Assembly: GCF_004010195.1 (NCBI RefSeq)
Contig: NC_057756.1
Location: 1,172,424-1,236,423 of the forward strand
Direction: 5' to 3'
Source of the DNA: Chiloscyllium plagiosum
Lineage: Eukaryota
DNA length: 64,000 nt
Position numbers and translations under genes: made by a program. How positions within the stretch are numbered: position 1 is the first letter of the stretch; each line of letters opens with the position of its first letter. Shown here piece after piece: positions 14,160 through 64,000 of this stretch. The notes below the pieces were generated by a model. It was not told the DNA's origin. It worked only from the letters and a program-made list of their open reading frames with translations, and made no database searches.

Positions 14160-15459
14160 GAAAAATGTGATGCTGGAAAAACACAGGCCAGGCAGCATCC
14201 GAAGACCAGGAGAATCGACGTTTCAAGCTGTTCTTCAGGATTGAGGCTGGTGTGCCAGGCGGGCTGAGAGAAAAGGTGGGGGGGGGGGAATTGGGGGGAG
14301 GGGCACTGGGAATACGATAGGTGGCAGGAGGTGAGGGTGAGGGTGATAGGCCAGAGAAGGGGTGGGGGCGGAATGGTCGGAAGAAGATTGCAGGTCAAGA
14401 GAGCGGTGCTGAATCCGGGGGTTGGGACTGAGACAAGGTGGGGGAGNNNNNNNNNNNNNNNNNNNNNNNNNNNNNNNNNNNNNNNNNNNNNNNNNNNNNN
14501 NNNNNNNNNNNNNNNNNNNNNNNNNNNNNNNNNNNNNNNNNNNNNNNNNNNNNNNNNNNNNNNNNNNNNNNNNNNNNNNNNNNNNNNNNNNNNNNNNNNN
14601 NNNNNNNNNNNNNNNNNNNNNNNNNNNNNNNNNNNNNNNNNNNNNNNNNNNNNNNNNNNNNNNNNNNNNNNNNNNNNNNNNNNNNNNNNNNNNNNNNNNN
14701 NNNNNNNNNNNNNNNNNNNNNNNNNNNNNNNNNNNNNNNNNNNNNNNNNNNNNNNNNNNNNNNNNNNNNNNNNNNNNNNNNNNNNNNNNNNNNNNNNNNN
14801 NNNNNNNNNNNNNNNNNNNNNNNNNNNNNNNNNNNNNNNNNNNNNNNNNNNNNNNNNNNNNNNNNNNNNNNNNNNNNNNNNNNNNNNNNNNNNNNNNNNN
14901 NNNNNNNNNNNNNNNNNNNNNNNNNNNNNNNNNNNNNNNNNNNNNNNNNNNNNNNNNNNNNNNNNNNNNNNNNNNNNNNNNNNGTGGTGGGGTCTGTTTG
15001 GAGGTGGCGGAAATGACAGAGGATGATACGATGTATCTGGGGGTTGGTGGGGTGGAAGGTGAGGACCAGTGGGGTTCTGTCCTGGTGGCGATTGAAGGGG
15101 TGGGATTCAAGGGCTGAGGTGCGGGAAGTGGAGAAGATGCGGTGGAGAGCATCGTCGACCACGTCGGAGGGGAAATTGTGGTCTTTGAAGAAGGAGGCCA
15201 TTTGGGTTGTTCGGCCGTGGAATTGGTCCTCCTGGGAGCAGATGCGGCGGAGTCGAAGGAATTGGGAATGTGGGATGGCGTTTTTACAGGGGGCAGGGTG
15301 GGAGGAGGCGTAATCTAGGTTGCTGTGGGAGTCGGTCGGTTTGTAGTATGCCCGAAACGTCGATTCTTCTGCTCCTCGGATGTTGCCTGGTCTGCTGTGT
15401 TTTTCCAGCATCACATTTTTCAACTCTGGTCTCCAGCATTTGTAGTCCTCACTTTCTCC
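14160..15459 (-). mobile_element. Penelope-like element fragment with inverted termini
   Basis: YYKPTDSHSNLDYASSHP..CKNAIPHSQFLRLRRICS (Penelope RT C-terminal region); 14-bp duplication TTGTTAAGAAGGTT at 14146-14159 and 15460-15473. Confidence 0.92.
14447..14983. other. Assembly gap (537 N)
   Basis: run of N. Confidence 1.
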
Positions 15460-32900: not shown

Positions 32901-33325
32901 AGAAGGATTAAGATGATTTACAGAGATGTGGGAGTGGAATTTTTCTCCTGTCAAGCAAGGAAAAAAATAAGGATGCAAATAATTAAGAGCAAATAGCATG
33001 GGGTTGAAAGAGAAATCCTAAATAATGGGATGTCTCCCTTTAAAGCAGTTCTCTGGCAATATCGTTTTCCCTCTAAAGAGATTTTTGAACGTGTAAGCTT
33101 TCTTGTAATGACGCTCTTGACAACGAGATTTTCTCTGTCCCTCTGTGGGGTGGGATCTGAGGAACGAATGGCCTAGTTGCAGCTACTGTATTTAAAGGGG
33201 CAGCTGAGAACAAGGTTCACGCCAAGCTTTGTGATCTAATCTTGAAAATCAGCCCCCATTCCACTCCCCCTTGTTTTTAGTTCAATGTTGCTGAAGTACT
33301 TAATCCGCCATTTTTTCCTTTGCAG

Positions 33326-33463
33326 AATGTGAACTGTCAGTCCAGTTGCACCCTGGCTACTGCTTTAGAGATTCAGATTCTGTGGGCAAACGTGGGCCCT
33401 CTCGCCAATCCCCAGGCAGCAGTGTTAGGTGCCCGTTTCCACTACCAGAAGCAAGATGTACAG
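33326..33463 (+). CDS. TCTN3: Tectonic-3-like coding exon
   Basis: ttttcctttgcag| acceptor, CAG|gttagt donor; NVNCQSSCTLATALEIQILWANVGPLANPQAAVLGARFHYQKQDVQ (LEIQ.LWA.VG.L.NPQA.V.G.RF.YQ motif); 138 nt. Confidence 0.95.
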
Positions 33464-34204
33464 GTTAGTTCAGAAGCAAACAAGGAACTGACGTTATATC
33501 TTTAGAAATCATTTGATTATGTCCTCATCTGGGGGAATCATACTCTCACAAGGGTAACAACAACTTGGAGAGGACACAGAGAAGATTTACCAGCACTTTC
33601 TTTACATTGTTCTGTACAACTTGGGAGATGCTGATTTTGCCAGTATTTATTACTGCTCTGTGAAGATGGTGATGAGCTGTCTTGAATCTCTGCAGCCCTT
33701 GTCATCTCGGATACCCATAACACTGTCCAGGATATTGATCCAGTGACAGTGAAGGAATGATGATAAATGTTTGATCACTGGAACACAATGGTCACTATCA
33801 GAGACCCGTTCAGCACCCACTCTCTGGGAGTTGGTTGATCATAGCTCCCTTCCAGCAAAACTGGAGCTTGATGTACACGGGCATAAGACTGGGCAAAATT
33901 CATGGAGACCCTAGGCTCCCCAAGCATCAGGAGTTCCCCGTTTGAAACCTCAGCTCCCAGCCACACACCAGCCTGACTTGGAAACGTTTCGCCATTCCTT
34001 GAATGTCACTGAGTCAAAGTCCCAGCCCTCCTCCTGAACATCAATGTGGGTTTAGCTACAGCAAACTGATTGCAGTGATTTAGGAAGGCAGTACACCGCC
34101 ACTATCTTAAGGGCAACTTGGGATCAACAATAAATGATGGTCCAGCCAGATGCCCACATCCCACGAATGAATAAGAAAAATATAAAAGCACCATGTTTGG
34201 CACT

Positions 34205-53319: not shown

Positions 53320-54410
53320 ATGTACAGCACGGAAACAGAGCGTTTGGTGCAACGCGTCCATGCTGACTAGATATCCTAACAGAATCTAGTCCCATTTGCC
53401 AGCACTTGACCCATATGCCTCTAAGTGAAAGTTAGGACTGCAGATGCTGGAGATTAGAGACAGGACTGTGGTACTGGAAAAGCACAGCAGTTCAGACAGC
53501 ATCCGAGGAGCAGGAAAATCGATGTTTCGGGCAAAAGCCCTTCATCAGGAATCAATCATTTTCCTGCTCCTCCGGATGCTGCCTGACCTGCTGTGCTTTT
53601 CCAGCATCACACTCTCGACTATTCTCCAGCATCTGCAGCCCTCACTTTCATCTATTCGAATTTAACCTCACTGTGAATCCTCTGCCAAGGATGGCTACCT
53701 TGAAGAAGTTCTCCTCCTCTCCATATGCCTATAAACCCTTCCTATTCATGAAACCATCCAGATGCCTTTTAACATGTTGTCACTGTAGCGTTGGACTGAT
53801 ACAGTTACAGGCCCTTTGGGCCAAACTGGTCCATACCAATCAAAATGTCAATGCTAACCCCTTTTCCCTGCACTTGACCCATATCCTTCCAAACCTTTCC
53901 TATCCATGTATTTGTCCAAATGTCTTTTAAATGTGCCCGCCTCAAACACTTCCACTGGCAGCTCATTCAAAATGTTTATTACCCTCTCTTGTCAAAACGT
54001 TGCCCCTCAGGTTCTCATTTATTCTTTCCTCTCTAAACTTAACCTGATGCCTTCCAGTCCTTGACTCCCCAACTTTGGGAAAGCGACTGAACACACTTAC
54101 CCTATCCATGCCTCTCATGATCTTATGGAAATTTATAAGATCTCCCGTCAGCCTCTTACGTTTTAAAATAAAAAAGTCCTCGCTTGTCCACTGAGTCCTG
54201 GCAACATCTTTGTAAATTTCTTACACACGCTTTCCAGTTTAATGATGTCCTTCCTACAGCAAGGTGACCAGAGCTGATCACAATACTCCAAGTGCGACCT
54301 CACCAACATCCTGTATAACTGCGACATAACATCCCAACTTCTATATTCAATGCCCTGACAGATGAAGGCCAGTGTGCCAAAAGCCTTCTTCATTGCTCTA
54401 TCCACATGGA
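53320..54410 (-). mobile_element. CR1 3' fragments with a Penelope fold-back insert (53425-53720)
   Basis: LVRSHLEYCDQLWSP; insert flanked by CCATATGCCT(C/A)TAA at 53411-53424 and 53721-53734. Confidence 0.85.
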
Positions 54411-54737
54411 CACATTACCAATATGTCACATTCTCCTAAGCTTACACACCCGACATGAAACCCACATCACGGATACTGATACAAACAGCGAAGAACCCAG
54501 CATGAGTCTAGCAGAAGCTCGTTGGAAAGCAGTCCTTCCCATTCCCAAGTTGACCATAAGCTTGTTTGTTGCCATTGGGCAAACTTTGGTCCCACTGGGC
54601 CACTTTGCAGTGAGCTTTTAACTGACAGACCAGACTGTAGCAGCACCCTACTGCGCCTAACGTCAGACATTCTCATGTCCTTCGTCACCAATACAGGCAC
54701 CCAGCAGACAAAGGCAGGGCTGCAAACTGGGTAACAC

Positions 54738-54743
54738 TTTATT
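54738..54743 (-). promoter_or_regulatory. Candidate polyadenylation signal (AATAAA) of the minus-strand gene
   Basis: tttatt on + strand about 200 nt downstream of the TAA. Confidence 0.55.
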
Positions 54744-54945
54744 GATTCATATAAATTCTGTGAACCAACACGGTCACCCAGGTGGAGTTTGCATTCTGGT
54801 TCGGAAGTGCTTTCTTTGCTCCTTTTAGTGTTTCTACAAAAAGGTGATTTCTGCAACACCCCCCAATTCGCCTGTCTGCTCCCCCCAACAAACATCTCCC
54901 TCTTAAATAAGTGGCACTGGTACTCGGTCAGGGCTGGCGAGGAGC

Positions 54946-55790
54946 TTACGGTCGGCGATCTCGAAGAGCCCGGGCACGAGGGGCTCTGGCTTCGGGTGGA
55001 GGTACCATCGCTGCCTCCGGGGCAGTGGGCGGTTGGGGATGCGGTGAAGGTGTGGACGCGCTGGAGTCCCGAGGGGGGCAGGACCGCACCACTCCCGTCG
55101 CACCGCCCCGTGCCCGGGCCTCGTCGGCGCCCCCGCTGGCCGGTGGCAGGGCAGACTCCAGGAGGCCGGTGACGCGGCCGAAGCCACGGTCGATGCGCGC
55201 TCCCAACCTTTCCAAGCCTGAGGAGATGGTGCAGGCCAGGGCCTGGATGGCACTGGTCTGAGCCTCGATCAACGAGGCCAAGGCCGGTGCCATGGGCTCC
55301 AGAACGGGGGGCTTCACCGCCGCTTCCACTGAGCTAACCATGTGCTCCATGGCAGACTGCAGGGTGGTGATACCCTGAGGCAGAACGCCACACAGTATGG
55401 AAGCAGAGTCTTCAACACTCTCCGATAGGGTGAGGCAGCTCCGAGACAAACTGTCCAAGGCTTCCAGCAGTTGGTGGTGAACGTGGAAGATCTTACGCTT
55501 GAAAGCCGGGCCACTCAATTCCGCGTCTCGGTGCTCCTCGGCATAGCTGGAGTCGGAGCTGGCCCTGTGGCCATCTGTCTCCTGCAGTGTCCTTTCCAGT
55601 ATGTTCAGCTCCTGCTCGCTACTGCCGAACAATTCGCCGCGTGAGGACTCTTGGAGTTCGCCCTCTCTCCCATCAGCCATGCTGATCTCCGTGTTGTGGT
55701 ACTGAAAGGACGGAGCTGATGATGGCACCTCTCCCATCAGGGGGCGCTCCTCCATCTCGTGCCCGGCCAAGCCCAGATAATGGGACAGAC
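54946..55790 (-). CDS. Last coding exon of the same putative Myb/SANT-type gene
   Basis: ccctttttcctccag| acceptor in phase 1 matching the upstream exon; 845-nt stop-free frame (ORF 54946..55770) with acidic/Ser-rich linker, helical heptad-like region and Pro-rich tail; ends TAA. Confidence 0.72.
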
Positions 55791-55965
55791 CTGGAGGAAA
55801 AAGGGAGAGGGGAGAAGGGGGTCAGCGGGCACCCGGGAGCCAGGGGAAGAAATAGCTGCACGGAGTGGCCACCCACCCACCCCCCTCCCCACCAATCCGG
55901 GGCGACCGCGCTTCCGACGCCACGCCTCAGCGAATCACGAGTGGCTACAGGAATGCAGAAGGCAC

Positions 55966-56125
55966 CCTGTGAAACTTGGCCTCCAGCCTCGCCGTTCTCA
56001 ATGCTCCTCCGGCTGTAGATCTCCACAATGTCCAGGGCCTCCTGCTCCATCTGGGTGGGGGCTTGGATGGAAAGCGGGCGCTCTCCACCGCCCAGCGGGT
56101 TCCTTGGTTTCTGCGCCAGCTTGTC
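55966..56125 (-). CDS. Penultimate exon of a putative Harbinger-derived Myb/SANT-type (NAIF1/MSANTD-like) gene
   Basis: ctaac branch site and ctctttccgcag| acceptor; DKLAQKPRNPLGGGERPLSIQAPTQMEQEALDIVEIYSRRSIENGEAGGQVSQ(G), resembling the KLA...GGG....T.ME..AL.I segment that follows the Myb/SANT domain in Harbinger DNA-binding proteins; CAGG|gtgcct donor, phase 1. Confidence 0.68.
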
Positions 56126-56457
56126 CTGCGGAAAGAGCCGGGAACCCGAGTTAGTTGCTTTGTTTATTTTTCTTTCCCCCTACGTTCAGCAATGTTCGGA
56201 AGAACTTGCTGCATCTTCTACCTACGTTCCAGGCGTCGAGGTGAAATTCTCATTAGGCATTAGCAAATTGCCGATTAAAAGGGATTATTGCTTGTTAATG
56301 ACCTTATTAGTTCCAGATCTCACCACCTGAATTTTAGTTGCTTTGTTTAATTCACTTGCAAGATGGAATCATCAGCTAGGCCAGCATTTATCACCCATCC
56401 CCAATTGCCCAGAAGGCAGTTAAGAATCAACTGTGTTGCTGTGGGTCAGGCCTCATG

Positions 56458-56810
56458 TCATAGAATCCCGACAGTGTAGAACAGGCCCTTTGGCCCAACA
56501 AGTTCACACCAACCCTCTGTAGAGTAACCCACCCAGACCCATTTCCCCACTTTATTATCCTTATATTTTCTCTTGACTAATGCACCTAGTCCACACATCC
56601 TTGAACTTTTTGAGCAATTCAGCATGGCTAATGCACCTAAACTGCACATCTTTGCATTGTGGGAGGAAACTGGAGCTCCCGGAGGAAACCTACACAGACA
56701 CGCGGAGAGTGTGCAAACTCCACAAGGACAATAGCCAGAGGCTGGAATCGAACCCAGGTCCCTAGTGCTGTGAGGCAGCAATGCTAACCACTGAACCACC
56801 TTGCCACACC
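56458..56810 (-). mobile_element. HE1-like SINE nested in an older SINE/LINE-tail repeat (about 56360-57030)
   Basis: SINE head/body; flanks join into the ggccagcatttat...atgtaggccagac repeat. Confidence 0.82.
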
Positions 56811-57189
56811 ATGTAGGCCAGACTGGGTAAGGATGGCAGTTTCCTTCCCTTAAGGATATCTGTGATTCAGATTGGATTTGTCTGACAGTCAACATTGAGT
56901 TAATGATCATTAGACTCTTAATTCTGGATTTAAAAAAAAAAATTCCATCATGTGCCAAGGCAGAGTTTGAACCAGTGTCCATGGAATATTACCTGGGTCT
57001 CTTGGATGAACAATCTAGCGATTACCCTACTACCCTCCCCTAACCTCCATTCCCCTACTGCCAGTATGGCCAGCTGCTGTAACAAAAAAGGGCTGTGAGT
57101 CAGACACAGGGAGAGTGGAGCAGGATGGTCTGGCACAGATGGCACACAGCAGCAGTAGCATCTAAAAATGGAAAAGGGAGCTTTTCACA

Positions 57190-57503
57190 GAAACATAATC
57201 TCCACCGTGCAGATACAGGCCATTCAGCCCATCGAATGGCCTGTCCAGACAACCTCTGCTCCTGAATTGCCAACATGGCTAACCCACCTAGCCTGCACAT
57301 CCCTGGATACATCACTGGGCAATTTAGCGTGGACAATTGACGTAACCTGCACATCTTTGGATTGTGGGAGAAAACCGCAACACCCGGGAGAAACCCACCC
57401 AGACAGAGAGAGAATGTGCAACCTCCACAGTCAGTCGCCCGAGGTTAGAATTGAACCACTGTCCCTGGTGTTGTGAAACAGCAGCGCTAACCACTGAGCC
57501 ACT
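57190..57503 (-). mobile_element. HE1-like SINE
   Basis: SINE head and body. Confidence 0.8.
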
Positions 57504-59265
57504 GGGCTGTACGTTCTTGTGGAAGGTCAGTGACCTAAGGTCAACTCTCGCTTCCCTCTGCAAGAACTGTTGGCATTTACCAAAAGGGGTAAAAGTTGGG
57601 TAGATTGTAGCCATAACTGACAGAAAATACACAAAATCATCACACACAGAGGCCAGGAAATTATTGGAGTGTGAAGGAAGTTGGGGGTTTGGAAAGTGTG
57701 AGTATTTGGTGCAGTGAGGCCATCCGCTTTGAATATTTAGCAAGTGCTTCATGCCAATAAGACAAATTACCTTCAATATCTGTCCCCTGTTAATGTTTGT
57801 AGCAGGAAGGATGAGGGAGAAACAAAACAAAATAAGAATTTGAAAGAAACATGCTTTCAGCATAGACTGAGTTAAGGGAGACCAATGTCTGTCTGAACTG
57901 AAATATGTGGGAGTTTGTGATTGTAAGATTAGCCTCCTTAATGCCTCTGATGCAGTTACCTTGAATCTGAGGGCAAGTCCTCTTTTTTCAAAAAAAATTA
58001 TCCCAACATGTTGGCAATGCTGATTGTGCCAGCATTTATTGACCTCCCCCTAACTGCCCAAGGGAAGGTGCTAATGAGACACTCAAATACTGCAGTCCAT
58101 GTAGGGCAAGGTACGCTGCGAGATGTTGTGGTTTAGGTTACCTTTAACCCGCTCACCTGCTCGCTATATTCATGAATGAATGGGAACCCAGTATTAATAA
58201 CTCCTTTACTAACCCACTCACAAGCGAATACTGCGTTCATGTTTCATTCATGCATAACTCCCTACTCAAACACTGTTTCATTCATTCATGAATAAAACTC
58301 CAGTTCTGTAGTATATTTTACTATCATAAGATAGAAAGTTTTGTTTTAAAATTTTGTCTAATCAAAACAGCCTTTTCAAGCCCATTCACACCTTATCGGC
58401 CCTTGCTACCTCTGACTAAGTGTAGCATACAGATCAATATCATGACTGCCATCAAGTCTCCATGAAAGATTATAACATTAATTAGCCCTTATCAACCGTC
58501 TCTCAGACCTGAATAGATTACAGGACAAACAGTTTCCCGAATTAGTATGTACTTGTTAAAATATCTTTTAAACTGGGCCATTATCCCTTTAAGAAACTGT
58601 CAAAAGCAGTGCTTCCATGAAATCACATGAATGAATGAAACTCACACTGGCAAATAGTAGACAAACCTCACAATCCAACTGCGATAATCAATTTATTAAT
58701 CTTTATTCTTTTATTAGATACAGGTACAATTTCTAACTTAGAGCACTTATTCACTAACTTAAAAGACAGAAGGACTAACACTTCTTAATTATGCAAGCAG
58801 ACTGGACAGACACTCAATCCTATCAGAAGTAGCAGCCAGCATTTGACACGCTTTAACCTATCTCCTGTCTCCCAGGACAGAAGCCCCTCAAACCTTTGTG
58901 TTCCATAGATAAAACAATGTAACATATATTAAAATTCCATTACTATGGTAAGAACTGTGCATAAAAAGGCTCGTGTGAGAACTGTATTTCAGGACTCTAT
59001 TGCTACCTTGAACTTGTGCTACTTGCGATTTCTGAATAAAGAAGCTAGTTTTGCCACTCACTGATTTTGATCATTATTTGAACATGATGCCATAATGCCC
59101 AGAATTTTTAGTGTAGGGAATTTCAGGATGTTGACCTCCAACAGTCAAGAAAAACAGATTTAATTCCATCGTATTATCCCTACTTGGAAAATCAGTATCA
59201 CTTCATTGTCGCAGGGTTAATACCCTGTAACACTCTTCCTAGCAAGTGTGGATGTTACAACAGCA

Positions 59266-59451
59266 GAAAATGTGTTGCTGGAAAAGCGCAGCAGGTCAGG
59301 CAGCATTCAAGGAGCAGGAGAATCAACGTTTCGGGCATGAGCCCTTCTTCAGGATTCCTGCTCCTTGGATGCTGCCTGACCTGCTGCGCTTTTCCAGCAA
59401 CACATTTTCAGCTCTGATCTCCAGCACCTGCAGTCCTCACTTTCCCCTGGG
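59266..59451. mobile_element. Fold-back Penelope mini-insert
   Basis: near-perfect inverted arms; 13-bp duplication TGTTACAACAGCA at 59253-59265 and 59452-59464. Confidence 0.88.
59319..59358 (-). ncRNA. Minimal hammerhead ribozyme motif (Penelope-type)
   Basis: GGAAUC-CUGAAGA-A-GGGC(UCAU)GCCC-GAAA-CG-UU-GAUUCU; stems I and II pair. Confidence 0.68.
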
Positions 59452-59679
59452 TGTTACAACAGCACAGTGACTGCAGAGCTTTAAGAAAGAGACTTCCCAT
59501 CACTTTCTCAAGGGCAATTCAGAATGGGTCACAAATACTGGCCTTGCCAAAGATATTAACGTCCCAGGAAGTGATATCAAAACAACACAGAAGGGTCATA
59601 TAATGAGAGAGCTACAGCTCAGAAAAAGGCTTTTTGGCCCATCACATCTGTACCAGTCAAAACAACGACCTAACAAGTA

Positions 59680-60290
59680 GATAGGACAGTGAAGATGGTG
59701 GTGTTTGGTTTGCCTTTACTCATCAGTGCGTTACGTATAGGAATTGGGAGGTCATGTTGCAACTACACAGGACATTGGTTAAGCCAGTTTTAGAATACTG
59801 TGTGCAATTCTGGTCTCCTTGCTACAGGAAGGATGTGGTGAAACGTAACAGTTTAGAAAAGATTTATAAGGATGTTGACAGGGCTGGAGGGAGAGGCTGA
59901 ATAGGCTGGGGCTATTTTCCCTTAACATCGGAGGCAGAGGCGTGACCTTATAGAGGTTTATAGAATCATGAGGGGCATGGATAGAAAAGGTCATTTCCCC
60001 AGGGTGGAAGCGTGGAGAAGTCCAAAACTAGAGGACATAGGTTTAAGGTGAGAGAGGGGAAAGATTTAAAAAGGATCGAAGAGGCAACTTTTTCCATGCA
60101 TAATGCAGTGTGTGTATGGAATGAGTTGCCAGAAGAGGTACAGTTACAACATTTTAAAAAGACATCTGGATGGGTATACAGTACAAATATGAAGGGCTTA
60201 GAGGGATGTGGGCCAGGTGCTGGCAAACAGAACTAGATTTATTTAGAATACCTAGTTGGCATGAAGCATCTGTCTCTGTACTGTGGATCT
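59680..60290 (+). mobile_element. CR1 3' fragment
   Basis: KTRGHRFKVR, VCVWNELPEEV. Confidence 0.85.
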
Positions 60291-60589
60291 CTGATGCCAA
60301 CAATGCAAATTCCATTTTGTAGCACTTGTCAAGTTTTTTTTTATTTACTCATGGAATGTGGGCATCGCTAGCTGGCCAGCATTTATTGCCCATCCTTAAT
60401 TGCCTTTGAACTGCATGGCTTGCTTGCTCAGCTATTTCAGAGGGCACATGAGACTTAACCACATTACTGCACACCTGAAGTCACATGAAGGCCAGACCAG
60501 GTGAAGATAGCAGATTCCTTCCCTGAAGGACATTAGTGAACCAGATGAGTTGTTGTTGTCAATCGACAGTATTCACGGTCTGGAGCAGA

Positions 60590-62960
60590 ATCACAGAGAC
60601 GTACAACATGGAAACAAACCCTTTGATCCAACTCTGGTGCATTCCGACCAGAAATCCTAACTTAATCTGGTCCTATTTGCCAGCACTTGGCCCATATTCC
60701 TCTAAATCATTCCTATTCATATATCTATTAAATGCTGTAATTGTACCAGCCTCTACCACTTCCTCTGGCAGCTCATTCCACACACAAAACCACTCAGTGT
60801 AAAAGAGTTGCCCCTTATGTCCCTTTTAAATTTCTCCCCTTTCACCCTAAACTTATGCCCTCTAGTTCTGGACTCCCACACACCACAGAAAACACCTGGT
60901 CTATTTACCCTATCCATGCCTCTCATGATTTTATAAACCTCTATAAGGTCACCCCTCAGCTTCTGATGCTCCAGGGAAAACAGCCCAGCTTATTCAGCCT
61001 GTCCTTGTAGCTCAAAACCCTGGCAATATCCTTACAAATCTTTTCTGAACCCTTTCACATTTCACAACATCCTTCCGATAGGAGGGAGACTAGAATGGCA
61101 CGCAATATTCTAAAACTGACCGAACCAATGTCGTGTATGGCCGCAACATGACCTCCCAACTCCTAAAGTCAATACACTGACCAATAAAGGAAAGCATACC
61201 AAATGCCTTCCTCACTGTCCTATCTACCTGCAAGTCTACTTTCAAGGATCTATGAACTTGCACTCAGAGGTCTTTGTTCAGCAACACACCCCAAGATCTC
61301 ACCATTAAGTGCACAAGCCCTGTTCCGATTTGCCTTTCCAAAATGCAGCACCTCACATTTATCTAAATTAAACTCCATCTGCCACTCCTGAGCACATTGG
61401 CCCATCTGATCAAGATCCCGTCGTACTGAGGTAACTTTCTTCACTGTCCACTACACCTCCAATTTTGGTGTCATCTGCAAATTTACTAACTGTACCTCCA
61501 ATGTTCACATCCAAATCATTTATATAAATGATGAAAAGCAACAGACCCAGCACTGATCCTTGTGGCACACTACTGGTCACAGGCCTCCAGTCTGAAAAGC
61601 AACTCTTCATCAGCACCCTGTCTTCTACCTTCAAACGAGTTCTGTATTCAAATGGCTAGTTCTTTCTGTATTCTATGAGATTTAACTTTGCTCAGCAGTA
61701 TACCATGAGGAACCTTTTCAAACGTCTTACAAAAGTCTATATCTCACATCCACCACTCTGCCCTCACCATACATCTTTGTGACTTCTTCAAAAATCTCAA
61801 TCAAGTTCGAGAGACATGATTTCCCAAGCACAAAGCCATGTTGACTATTGCTATTTAATCCTTGCCTTTCCAAATGTGTAAATCCTGTCCCTCGGGATTC
61901 CCTCCAACAACTTGCCCACCACTGATGTCAGGCTCATTGGCAGTTATCTGGCTTTTCCTTACCACCTTTCTTAAATAGTGGCACCACATTAGCCAACCTC
62001 CAGTCTTCCACTACCTCACCTGTGACTATCAATGATACAAGTATATCTCAGCAAGGGACCCAACAATCACTTCCCTAGCTTCCCACAAAGTTGTAGGGTA
62101 CACTTGATCAGGTCCTGGGGATTTATCCACATGTGTTTTAAGACATCCAACACTTCCCCCTTTGCAATACGGACATTTTTCAAGACATCACCATCTATTT
62201 CCCCACATTCCATACCATCCAAGTCCTTCTCCACAGTAAACACTGATGTAAAATACTCATTTCTGCCCCATCTCCTGCGGTTCCACACATAGGCTGCCTT
62301 GCTGATCTTTGAGGTGCCCTATTCTGTCCCTAGTTACCCTTTTGCTCTTATTGCATTTATAAAATCCCTTTGGATTTTCCTTAATCCCATTTGCCAAAGC
62401 TATCTCATGTCCCCTTTTTGCCCTCCAGATTTCCCCCTTAAATATACTTCGACTGCCTTTATACGCTAACAATTCCCTCGATCTCTGCCTTCTATACCTG
62501 ACATGCTTCCTTATTTTTCTTAAACAAAACGTCAATTTGTCTAGTCATCCAGCATTTCCTACACCTACCAGTCTTGCCTTTCACCCAAACAGGAACATAC
62601 TGTCTCTAGGCTCTTGTTATCTCATTTTTGAAGGCTTCCCATTTTCCAGCCATTGCTTTACCTGCTAACATCTATTCCCAGTCAACTTTTGAATGTTCTT
62701 GCCTAATACCATCAAAATTGGCCTTCCTCAAAAGTTCCACTTGTAGATCTGGTCTATCATTTTCCATCACTACTTCAAAACTAATAAAATTATGGATGCT
62801 GGCCCCAAAGTGCACCTCCACTGATATCTCGGTCACCTACCTGGCCTTATTTCCCAAGGATAGGTCAAGTTTTGCAGCTTCTCTCATAGGTATATCCACA
62901 TATGTTTTCTTGTACACACAAATTCCTCTCCACCTAAACCCTTAACACTATGGCAATAAC
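60590..62960 (-). mobile_element. 5'-truncated CR1 ORF2
   Basis: [43 protein letters not shown]. Confidence 0.92.
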
Positions 62961-63292
62961 TTCTTAATTCCAGAAATTCGGGTTTCAAATTCATGGCAGG
63001 ATTCAAACTCAAGTCTCCAGAACACTAGTGGAGTTACTGGATTAATAGTCTAGTGATAATACTATGAGGCCTTCAACTCGGCAGTAACATAATATCATTC
63101 ATTTGAAGAATAAGTTTGAGGCTTTCTACATCTACCATTCTTACAGGTAGTCAGTTCCAGATGCCCATCACACTCTGGGTGAAAAGATTTCTCTCGCATC
63201 TGCTCCAAACCTTCTGTCCCCTCCCTTAAATGTACGGCCCTGGTCAATAATCCAGTGACCAAAGGGGAAAAGTTCCTTCCTGTCTACCTATC

Positions 63293-63585
63293 ACAGAATC
63301 ATCGATTCCCTTCATTGTGGAAACAGACCTTTTGACCCAACATGTCCACACCGACCCTCTGAACAGTAGCCCAACCAGACCCATTCCCCTGACTAATGCA
63401 CCTAACCTACACATCACTAAACATTATGGGCATTTAGCATAGCCAATTCACCTAACCGGAACATCTTATGGGACGAAACCGAAGCATGTGGAGAAACCCG
63501 TGCAGACAGTTGCCCGGGGCTGCAATTGAACACAGGTGCCTGGCACTGTGAGGCAGCAGTGCTAACCACTGGGCAACTGTGCCAC
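63293..63585 (-). mobile_element. HE1-like SINE within a CR1 3' fragment
   Basis: SINE head and body. Confidence 0.78.
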
Positions 63586-63764
63586 CAAATCTATGTCTGT
63601 ACCCATCTTTGCTTCTCGTAAATGTATACATCTCAATCACATCCCCTTTTCAATCGGCTAGAAAGAAAATTAACCCCAGTCTGACTAATCTCTCTTCAAA
63701 ACACTGAGTGGAACTTTTGCTCCATGCCTCAGGTGGCATTAATGTATCTAATAATACACATGTT

Positions 63765-64000
63765 AACCAAGATTTGGAGATGCCAGTGTTGGACTGGGGT
63801 GTACAAAGTTCAACATCACACAACACCAGGTTATAGTCCAACAGGTTTAGTTAGAAGCACACCAGCTTTCGGAGCGACGCTCCTTCATCAGGTGATAGTG
63901 GAGGGCTCAATCGTAACACAGAATTTATAGCAAAAATTGACAGTGTGATGTAACTGAAATTATACATTGAAAAACTGATTGTCTGTTAAGCCTTCCATCT
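63765..64000 (-). mobile_element. Penelope terminal region (second family), truncated by the window end
   Basis: homologous to 25883-26086; minus strand CTGATGAAGGAGCGTCGCTCCGAAAGCT hammerhead-like core. Confidence 0.72.

What the first reader, a model, noticed from the sequence alone, without database searches (positions are those of the whole stretch)
54738..56160. Intact, spliced, CpG-rich gene resembling a domesticated Harbinger Myb/SANT protein, convergent with TCTN3
Seen: two minus-strand exons (160 and 845 nt) with canonical splice signals, compatible phase 1, no stops over about 334 codons, and an AATAAA 200 nt downstream, whereas every other element-derived ORF in the window is broken. 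Known: Harbinger transposons encode a Myb/SANT DNA-binding protein that vertebrates have repeatedly domesticated (NAIF1, MSANTD family). Inference: the KLA...GGG...T.ME.EAL.I segment resembles the post-Myb region. No transposase or TIR is evident and the upstream intron is long and SINE-filled, which favours a host gene, possibly cartilaginous-fish specific. The Myb domain itself is not visible here.
Basis: partly seen in the sequence, partly recalled or inferred. Interest (0 to 1): 0.7.

Follow-up and report, generated by a model that had tools for sequence, protein, structure and literature searches.

The report
Tamed Harbinger Myb twin, sharks/rays
This is a real, spliced three-exon bamboo-shark gene, kept by sharks, rays and skates, that likely descends from the DNA-binding helper gene of a Harbinger jumping element and is predicted to be a gene regulator; an inverted twin 200 kb away has, in sharks, likely kept copying about half of its sequence while the DNA-binding ends stayed different.

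Summary
Observation confirmed, interpretation supported. The two exons are exons 2-3 of a 411-aa protein (RefSeq LOC122544159, Chiloscyllium plagiosum). Exon 1, 26.4 kb upstream and outside the window, holds the predicted Myb_DNA-bind_5 domain. Sequencing-run contigs show both junctions. Orthologues exist in sharks, rays and skates (Myb domain 68-77/77 identical); none was named outside elasmobranchs. No transposase lies within 386 kb. Harbinger ancestry was tested: 7 of 56 dispersed Myb-relative loci in this genome have a transposase remnant, all 7 facing the Myb exon, against 0 of 58 control windows. In sharks, residues 116-198 and 273-411 group by species (gene conversion) while 1-115 and 222-272 group by paralogue; in batoids both partitions group by paralogue. 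Most likely a nuclear trihelix DNA-binding regulator with an oligomerising helical domain; function untested. It is a new member of the NAIF1/MSANTD class, not found in my paper searches. This scan had already reported the twin gene (same genome) and a ray orthologue.

The parts
56126..64000 (-). Window part of intron 1 (26,391 nt in all, phase 0), filled with LINE/SINE fragments. It leads to exon 1 (231-nt CDS, aa 1-77, the Myb/SANT trihelix domain), which lies OUTSIDE the window at G000:C47:1255170-1254940, about 18.5 kb beyond its end, in a GC 65%, CpG o/e 0.77 region.
   Evidence: junction; Pfam
55966..56125 (-). Exon 2 (160 nt, aa 78-131): basic stretch plus post-Myb helix 102-120. aa 78-115 are paralogue-specific; aa 116-131 are homogenised with paralogue B in sharks.
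55791..55965 (-). Intron 2 (175 nt, phase 1), alignable to the 141-nt intron 2 of paralogue B
54946..55790 (-). Exon 3 CDS (aa 131-411): acidic disordered linker, predicted long helices 225-287 and 298-343, Pro/Ala tail ending in a basic motif
54738..54743 (-). AATAAA polyadenylation signal
   Evidence: PolyA single-cell reads (X20) pile in bin 54668-55001 on one orientation and are absent from 55002-55669. Contigs also run on to 54363, so longer 3' ends are not excluded.
33323..33466 (+). Exon of the convergent tectonic (TCTN) neighbour gene; context only

Best explanation
This is a spliced, conserved host gene of sharks, rays and skates that likely arose by domestication of the Myb/SANT helper gene of a Harbinger transposon, and its protein is predicted to be a nuclear DNA-binding regulator whose long C-terminal helices likely assemble it with partners. 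SHOWN: three exons, splicing, Myb_DNA-bind_5 domain, orthologues, no nearby transposase, a linked inverted paralogue B, and a mosaic A/B history. INFERRED, step 1: an ancestral elasmobranch Harbinger lost its transposase and ends, and its Myb gene was kept under a CpG-island promoter. INFERRED, step 2: an inverted duplication of a SPRY-gene+Myb cassette made A and B before sharks and rays split. INFERRED, step 3: in sharks, repeated gene conversion between the inverted copies has homogenised aa 116-198 and 273-411, while selection has kept the DNA-binding end (1-115) and the first long helix (222-272) different, so A and B would read different DNA sites and pick different partners on a shared scaffold. 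INFERRED, step 4 (analogy to NAIF1-HARBI1 and plant ALP2/HDP2): the trihelix binds a specific DNA motif, and the helical domain oligomerises or carries a domesticated transposase or chromatin complex there.
For: Host gene: exact CDS; junctions; 2 copies; no transposase in C47:940,001-1,326,423, 9.6 kb of it gaps; Myb domain 77/77 identical to whale shark and horn shark, 75/77 to Hypanus, 68/77 to Leucoraja, while the tail falls to 14-17/64 in batoids; A vs B dN 0.16, dS 0.57. A and B types share a longest-contig length in 7 species. Harbinger origin: 7 of 56 Myb-relative loci carry a transposase remnant, all 7 on the opposite strand and downstream of the Myb exon; 0 of 20 offset windows and 0 of 38 C47 windows; p=0.006 against all controls; 7/7 opposite strand p=0.008; P0043 matches profile positions 5-385 at E 5.5e-43 and its 8 of 8 hits are from one species, Heptranchias, on contigs of 8 different lengths, two of them embedded in unrelated gene models; A/B/C clade 98/92 placed next to that family inside a 99/95 clade whose named members are elasmobranch. 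Conversion: shark quartet sites, orthology:conversion = 211:5, 183:0 and 116:6 in the protected blocks; 3:279, 1:99, 0:111 and 4:416 in the converted blocks; the two partition trees conflict, with A 99 and B 100 in one and species pairs at 98-100 for 5 of 7 shark pairs in the other; dS 0.69-1.2 in protected vs 0.2-0.47 in converted blocks. Fold.
Against: No DNA binding or localisation was shown. Harbinger co-location is not significant against the 20 matched windows alone (p=0.11). An earlier pass with a cruder profile found it in only 1 of 20 Myb loci and 2 of 32 transposase loci, those two in tandem rather than convergent. The fossils share only about 28-48% identity with exon 1, and the helical domain was not detected next to any transposase remnant. 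The tree rests on 75 columns, and the node joining A/B/C to the transposon-like family is weak (89/44). Segment borders for the conversion test were chosen after seeing the alignment, quartets are not independent, two pairs mix species, and aa 199-221 are ambiguous (35:50). The two carpet-shark pairs have only 46-50 support as species pairs. The model's pTM is 0.31 and the long helices have pLDDT of about 52-75. Orientation and neighbours in other species were not seen.
Confidence: 0.8

Rival explanations
1. The gene was domesticated to police Harbinger elements: its Myb domain still binds Harbinger terminal repeats and silences them, or poisons their transposase.
For: Harbinger Myb proteins bind TIRs and import the transposase (PMC9392472, introduction read). 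Harbingers were abundant in this lineage: 144 transposase matches, of which only the top 6 are long stop-free ORFs covering the whole family. A related family still looks recently mobile in Heptranchias.
Against: The Myb domain is almost frozen, not fast-evolving as expected in a conflict. The fossils in this genome are only about 66-78% alike, so the target seems long dead here while the gene persists.
Confidence: 0.12
2. It is an old host trihelix factor of non-transposon origin, and the transposons captured or merely resemble it.
For: PF13873 also covers host genes (11 stop-free loci in this genome). The tree is short and midpoint-rooted.
Against: No named orthologue outside elasmobranchs: 32 of 32 hits and 40 of 41 with 1 unnamed. 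The 4 bony-vertebrate hits among 29 representatives looked up match only the first 124 profile positions. Its dispersed relatives sit facing transposase remnants.
Confidence: 0.05
3. It is an ordinary, recently inserted or neutrally decaying Harbinger copy.
For: Same domain class as transposon-like relatives.
Against: Two copies only, 26-kb intron, no transposase, no inverted repeat above 14 nt between the 3-kb flanks, orthologues across sharks and batoids with strong constraint, spliced.
Confidence: 0.01
4. The A/B mosaic is an assembly or annotation artefact rather than gene conversion.
For: Some pairs are 92-100% identical in the shared blocks (Heterodontus, Pristiophorus), which can confuse assemblers.
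Against: In this genome A and B are two separate loci 79% identical in DNA, and run contigs separate them. The same block borders recur in 7 shark lineages, with a paralogue-specific block inside exon 3 between converted blocks.
Confidence: 0.04

Closest known systems
NAIF1 and MSANTD1-4: vertebrate genes domesticated from Harbinger Myb-like ORFs (PMC9392472; parts 1-2 of 9 and passages read)
   Same: N-terminal Myb/SANT trihelix domain, few exons (three for MSANTD1/3/4), fixed without transposase, purifying selection.
   Different: Those were found from human proteins and date to jawed vertebrates or sarcopterygians. This gene has named orthologues only in elasmobranchs, groups apart from other PF13873 loci of the same genome, has a C-terminal helical domain with no Pfam match, and forms an inverted pair under partial concerted evolution.
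Myb-like second ORF of PIF/Harbinger transposons (PMC9392472 introduction; PMC9179366 abstract and passages)
   Same: Domain, post-Myb motif, and decayed relatives that face a DDE_Tnp_4 transposase.
   Different: No transposase or terminal repeats here, long first intron, two copies, conserved orthologues.
Plant co-domesticated pairs ALP1/ALP2, HDP1/HDP2, HHP1/SANT1-4 (passage in PMC9392472 Discussion)
   Same: Myb-derived DNA-binding partner; this genome also holds 6 intact transposase-like ORFs, 5 of which lack at least one residue of the apparent DDE triad.
   Different: No interaction or chromatin complex was tested here; the link is an analogy.
Segmental gene conversion between linked paralogues (e.g. 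red/green opsin or RHD/RHCE-type mosaics; recalled, from no call)
   Same: Tract-wise homogenisation with protected function-defining blocks.
   Different: Here it acts on a transposon-derived DNA-binding gene pair, persists across shark orders and appears to have stopped in batoids.

Membership tests
Myb_DNA-bind_5 (PF13873) proteins | Score above the curated cut-off (21.7 bits) | tested here: met
   50.6 bits, aa 5-82; three helices at pLDDT 84-94
Domesticated Harbinger Myb-like gene | Homology to Harbinger second-ORF Myb proteins | tested here: met
   7 of 56 Myb-relative loci face a transposase remnant vs 0 of 58 controls; full-length homology to a dispersed single-species family. Not significant against matched controls alone (p=0.11).
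Domesticated Harbinger Myb-like gene | Low copy, no transposase or TIR | tested here: met
Domesticated Harbinger Myb-like gene | Orthologues under purifying selection | tested here: met
   Protein conservation by segment; paralogue dN/dS 0.28. Cross-species codon models not run.
Domesticated Harbinger Myb-like gene | Same genomic position across species | tested here: inconclusive
   A and B share contig length in 7 species; flanking genes in other species could not be fetched
Domesticated Harbinger Myb-like gene | Transcribed and spliced | tested here: met
   (the contig runs are not on record as RNA, but carry the intron-less joints)
NAIF1 / MSANTD1-4 orthologue | Orthologue in bony vertebrates | tested here: not met
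   No full-length bony-vertebrate hit (29 of 150 listed representatives looked up); separate clade. Word-index searches can miss distant relatives.
Active Harbinger transposon | Transposase ORF, TIRs, many near-identical copies | tested here: not met
NAIF1-like function | Binds DNA and a Harbinger-derived transposase, nuclear import | not tested
   Needs binding assays; no model with a transposase was run

The most novel reading that the evidence does not exclude
Elasmobranchs carry a whole lineage-specific regulatory kit co-domesticated from Harbinger: at least five Myb+helix genes in this genome and several catalytically dead transposases. In it, A and B are two DNA-address subunits that plug into the same complex, and gene conversion has kept their shared docking parts matched throughout shark evolution while selection guards two different DNA specificities.
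Probability: 0.25. Interest if true: 0.75.

Novelty: new member of a known kind. Interest (0 to 1): 0.5.

Why it matters
The published survey of vertebrate Harbinger domestication started from human proteins (PMC9392472), so lineage-specific cases were out of its reach. This is a solid elasmobranch case, with sister genes. The A/B mosaic is a natural domain map: it points to aa 1-115 and 222-272 as the specificity-bearing parts and makes the function testable with two swaps. It is also a long-lived example of conversion that continued in sharks and stopped in rays.

Tried and rejected
X linkage: considered because the contig is small. Rejected, because the preprint 10.1101/2025.02.26.637739 (passages) infers chr43 as X in this species and gives X sizes of 16.4-28.8 Mb, while this contig is no. 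47 and 10.7 Mb (equating contig number with chromosome number is my assumption; the preprint's tables were not visible). Passages of PMC11406177 and passages plus one section of 10.1101/2025.03.13.642935 were also read for this and do not mention the gene. A-B heteromer of aa 215-350: complex prediction gave no answer (score 0.03); no evidence either way. Foldseek against PDB: nothing at E<=0.001; the best weak rows were Sap1, TRF and Zeste DNA-binding domains. ESM Atlas for aa 215-350: best 0.80, a lead only. No RNA holder was listed on record. Run X21 laid no reads. GC-biased conversion as the cause of the high GC/CpG: not supported, since GC3 is highest in unconverted exon 1 (0.86) and family member D on C39 is as CpG-rich. 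Myb-transposase fusion models: none among 86 of the 150 listed representatives scanned. DNA-level matching of Myb-fossil and transposase-fossil flanks was uninformative. C39 was first taken for a third close paralogue; it is the orthologue of P0038, a separate family member. The C-type paralogue of other sharks and rays was not found in this genome. PDB search with the tectonic exon: 0 hits. Literature: 8 searches found no paper on this gene or on shark-specific Harbinger domestication; the library lacks most subscription journals, and supplements were not read. Matched control windows number only 20, which leaves the matched-only test underpowered.

Full report
OBSERVATION. Exon 3 is 63.8% GC with CpG o/e 0.71, against 0.29 for the window. 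A tectonic gene lies on the plus strand, so the arrangement is convergent; the name TCTN3 is from recall.

THE WHOLE GENE. The exon-3 peptide is 100% identical to a 411-aa protein named LOC122544159 of Chiloscyllium plagiosum (XP_043539125.1). Its first 77 residues map to G000:C47:1255170-1254940, 26,391 nt upstream of exon 2 and 18.5 kb beyond the window. The three genomic exons translate exactly to that protein. Residues 5-82 score 50.6 bits on Myb_DNA-bind_5 (cut-off 21.7). In one search, 3 of 3 contig runs show the exon1/exon2 junction and 1 of 3 shows the exon2/exon3 joint; the raw-read run laid nothing. In one search, polyA single-cell reads gather just upstream of the AATAAA in one orientation. 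AlphaFold2 (22 sequences, pTM 0.31) gives a confident trihelix (11-81), a helix at 102-120, a disordered linker, long helices at 225-287 and 298-343 of middling confidence, and a disordered tail.

HOST GENE, NOT TRANSPOSON. A DNA search finds this locus, one 79%-identical copy and a 64-bp flank match. No transposase is detectable in C47:940,001-1,326,423 by tblastn or by a fossil-trained profile; 9.6 kb of that span is gap. No inverted repeat longer than 14 nt links the 3-kb flanks. All 32 hits and 40 of 41 (1 unnamed) are sharks, rays or skates. The Myb domain is identical in whale shark and horn shark, 75/77 in Hypanus and 68/77 in Leucoraja; aa 222-272 are 47-51/51 identical; the tail drops to 14-17/64 in batoids. 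Of 17 exon-3 differences taken from the long contigs of one other run (the table was truncated), 11 are synonymous and all 6 replacements lie in the tail. Of 29 representatives looked up from the 150 listed, 24 are elasmobranch, 4 are bony vertebrates matching only the Myb end, and 1 is unnamed.

HARBINGER ORIGIN. The genome has 144 scored DDE_Tnp_4 matches, mostly broken, and dozens of dispersed Myb-exon relatives, many with stops. A first pass was weak. With a profile enriched by fossils, 7 of 56 Myb-relative loci had a transposase remnant within about 1-3 kb, every one on the opposite strand and downstream of a Myb exon; controls gave 0 of 20 offset windows and 0 of 38 C47 windows. Four loci with only C-terminal or no Myb match (L131, L133, L134, L136) were left out of the 56. 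Fisher p is 0.006 against all controls but 0.11 against the matched ones alone; 7 of 7 opposite-strand has p=0.008. The convergent layout as typical of Harbinger is recalled. P0043 of Heptranchias aligns over both the Myb and the helical domain and behaves like a mobile family: 8 of 8 hits from that one species, on contigs of 8 different lengths. One decayed copy in this genome keeps both the Myb and C-terminal parts 1.2 kb apart (L132). In a 75-column tree, A, B and a third type C form a clade (98/92) beside that family, apart from the other PF13873 loci of the genome; the joining node is weak.

THE TWIN. Paralogue B has the same three exons on the opposite strand at C47:1011165-1031484 and an intact 407-aa frame. 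Between B and A lie a methyltransferase exon (PF10294) and the tectonic gene. Outside each lies a SPRY exon pointing the same way as its Myb gene, the two 44% identical: an old inverted duplication of a cassette (inferred). A and B types occur in sharks and batoids and share a contig length in 7 species. Across 7 shark pairs, quartet sites support orthology in aa 1-77 (211:5), 78-115 (183:0) and 222-272 (116:6), but same-species grouping in 116-131 (1:22), 132-198 (3:279), 273-296 (1:99), 297-347 (0:111) and 348-411 (4:416); aa 199-221 are mixed (35:50). Trees on the two partitions conflict accordingly, and the two batoid pairs group by paralogue in both. In this genome dS follows the same pattern. 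Exon 1 could escape conversion simply by distance, but aa 78-115 and 222-272 are contiguous with converted tracts, so selection against conversion is the likely reason (inference). Caveats: borders were chosen after viewing, quartets are not independent, and two pairs mix species.

MECHANISM. Most likely (0.8) a domesticated Harbinger Myb gene encoding a nuclear, sequence-specific trihelix regulator with an assembly helix, working like NAIF1 or plant ALP2/HDP2 (PMC9392472: parts 1-2 of 9 and passages read). A and B would differ in DNA address and partner choice. None of the biochemical steps is shown. Rivals: transposon policing (0.12), non-transposon origin (0.05), artefactual mosaic (0.04), ordinary transposon (0.01).

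NOVELTY. The class is known; this member is unnamed in RefSeq and absent from my 8 paper searches. PMC9179366 (abstract and passages) even reported Harbingers as undetected in elephant shark and asked for other cartilaginous fish to be examined. After the conversion analysis I looked up the scan's own notes by words (the look-up by sequence was empty): the twin gene in this genome and a ray orthologue had been reported with the same reading, and a note on two-gene shark Harbingers preceded my larger co-location test. Those are unchecked notes and add no support. Verdict: real gene, new member of a known kind, with an unusual and testable mosaic history; interest 0.5.

Noticed in passing
Exon 1 of A (G000:C47:1255170-1254940) and of B, after codon 20: Both carry an in-frame donor-like site. 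Database isoforms in 4 species (P0014, P0017, P0022, P0023) jump from residue 20 to exon 2, deleting most of the Myb domain: a possible natural DNA-blind, dominant-negative form. Not seen in the contigs laid here.
   Followed up: partly
G000:C39:16536752-16540908, C27:48433082-48437087, C22:44298716-44300790, C94654:13266-13835; also C37:1621886, C98663:8098: Further stop-free Myb and/or helical-domain family loci. C39 matches Heptranchias P0038 (89% in Myb), C27 matches Narcine P0045 (92%), and C22 groups with the P0048 cluster: several conserved sister genes.
   Followed up: partly
L061-L066 (C1, C17, C37, C11, C88124, C31): Six intact DDE_Tnp_4 ORFs among 144 matches; five lack at least one residue of the apparent DDE triad. 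Candidate domesticated transposases and possible partners.
   Followed up: partly
Proteins P0050 (Heptranchias) and P0066 (Rhincodon): A SAMD1 winged-helix N-terminus (PF21524, E 1e-25) is joined to this family's C-terminal helical domain; P0066 similarly joins KH domains to it. The helical exon may have been captured by other genes, or these are model fusions.
   Followed up: no
G000:C47:994521-995030 (+) and 1297144-1296644 (-): Mirrored PRY/SPRY exons, 44% identical, flank the A/B pair.
   Followed up: partly
window 54000-54740: Run contigs continue past the AATAAA to 54363 and 54000: a longer 3' UTR, read-through or DNA.
   Followed up: no
L210 (G000:C9:45850000-45859999): Two decayed Myb exons head-to-head 400 bp apart, one followed by a convergent transposase remnant.
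   Followed up: no
window 14447-14983 (C47:1186870-1187406): Assembly gap inside a Penelope-like fragment (the Penelope label is recalled).
   Followed up: no
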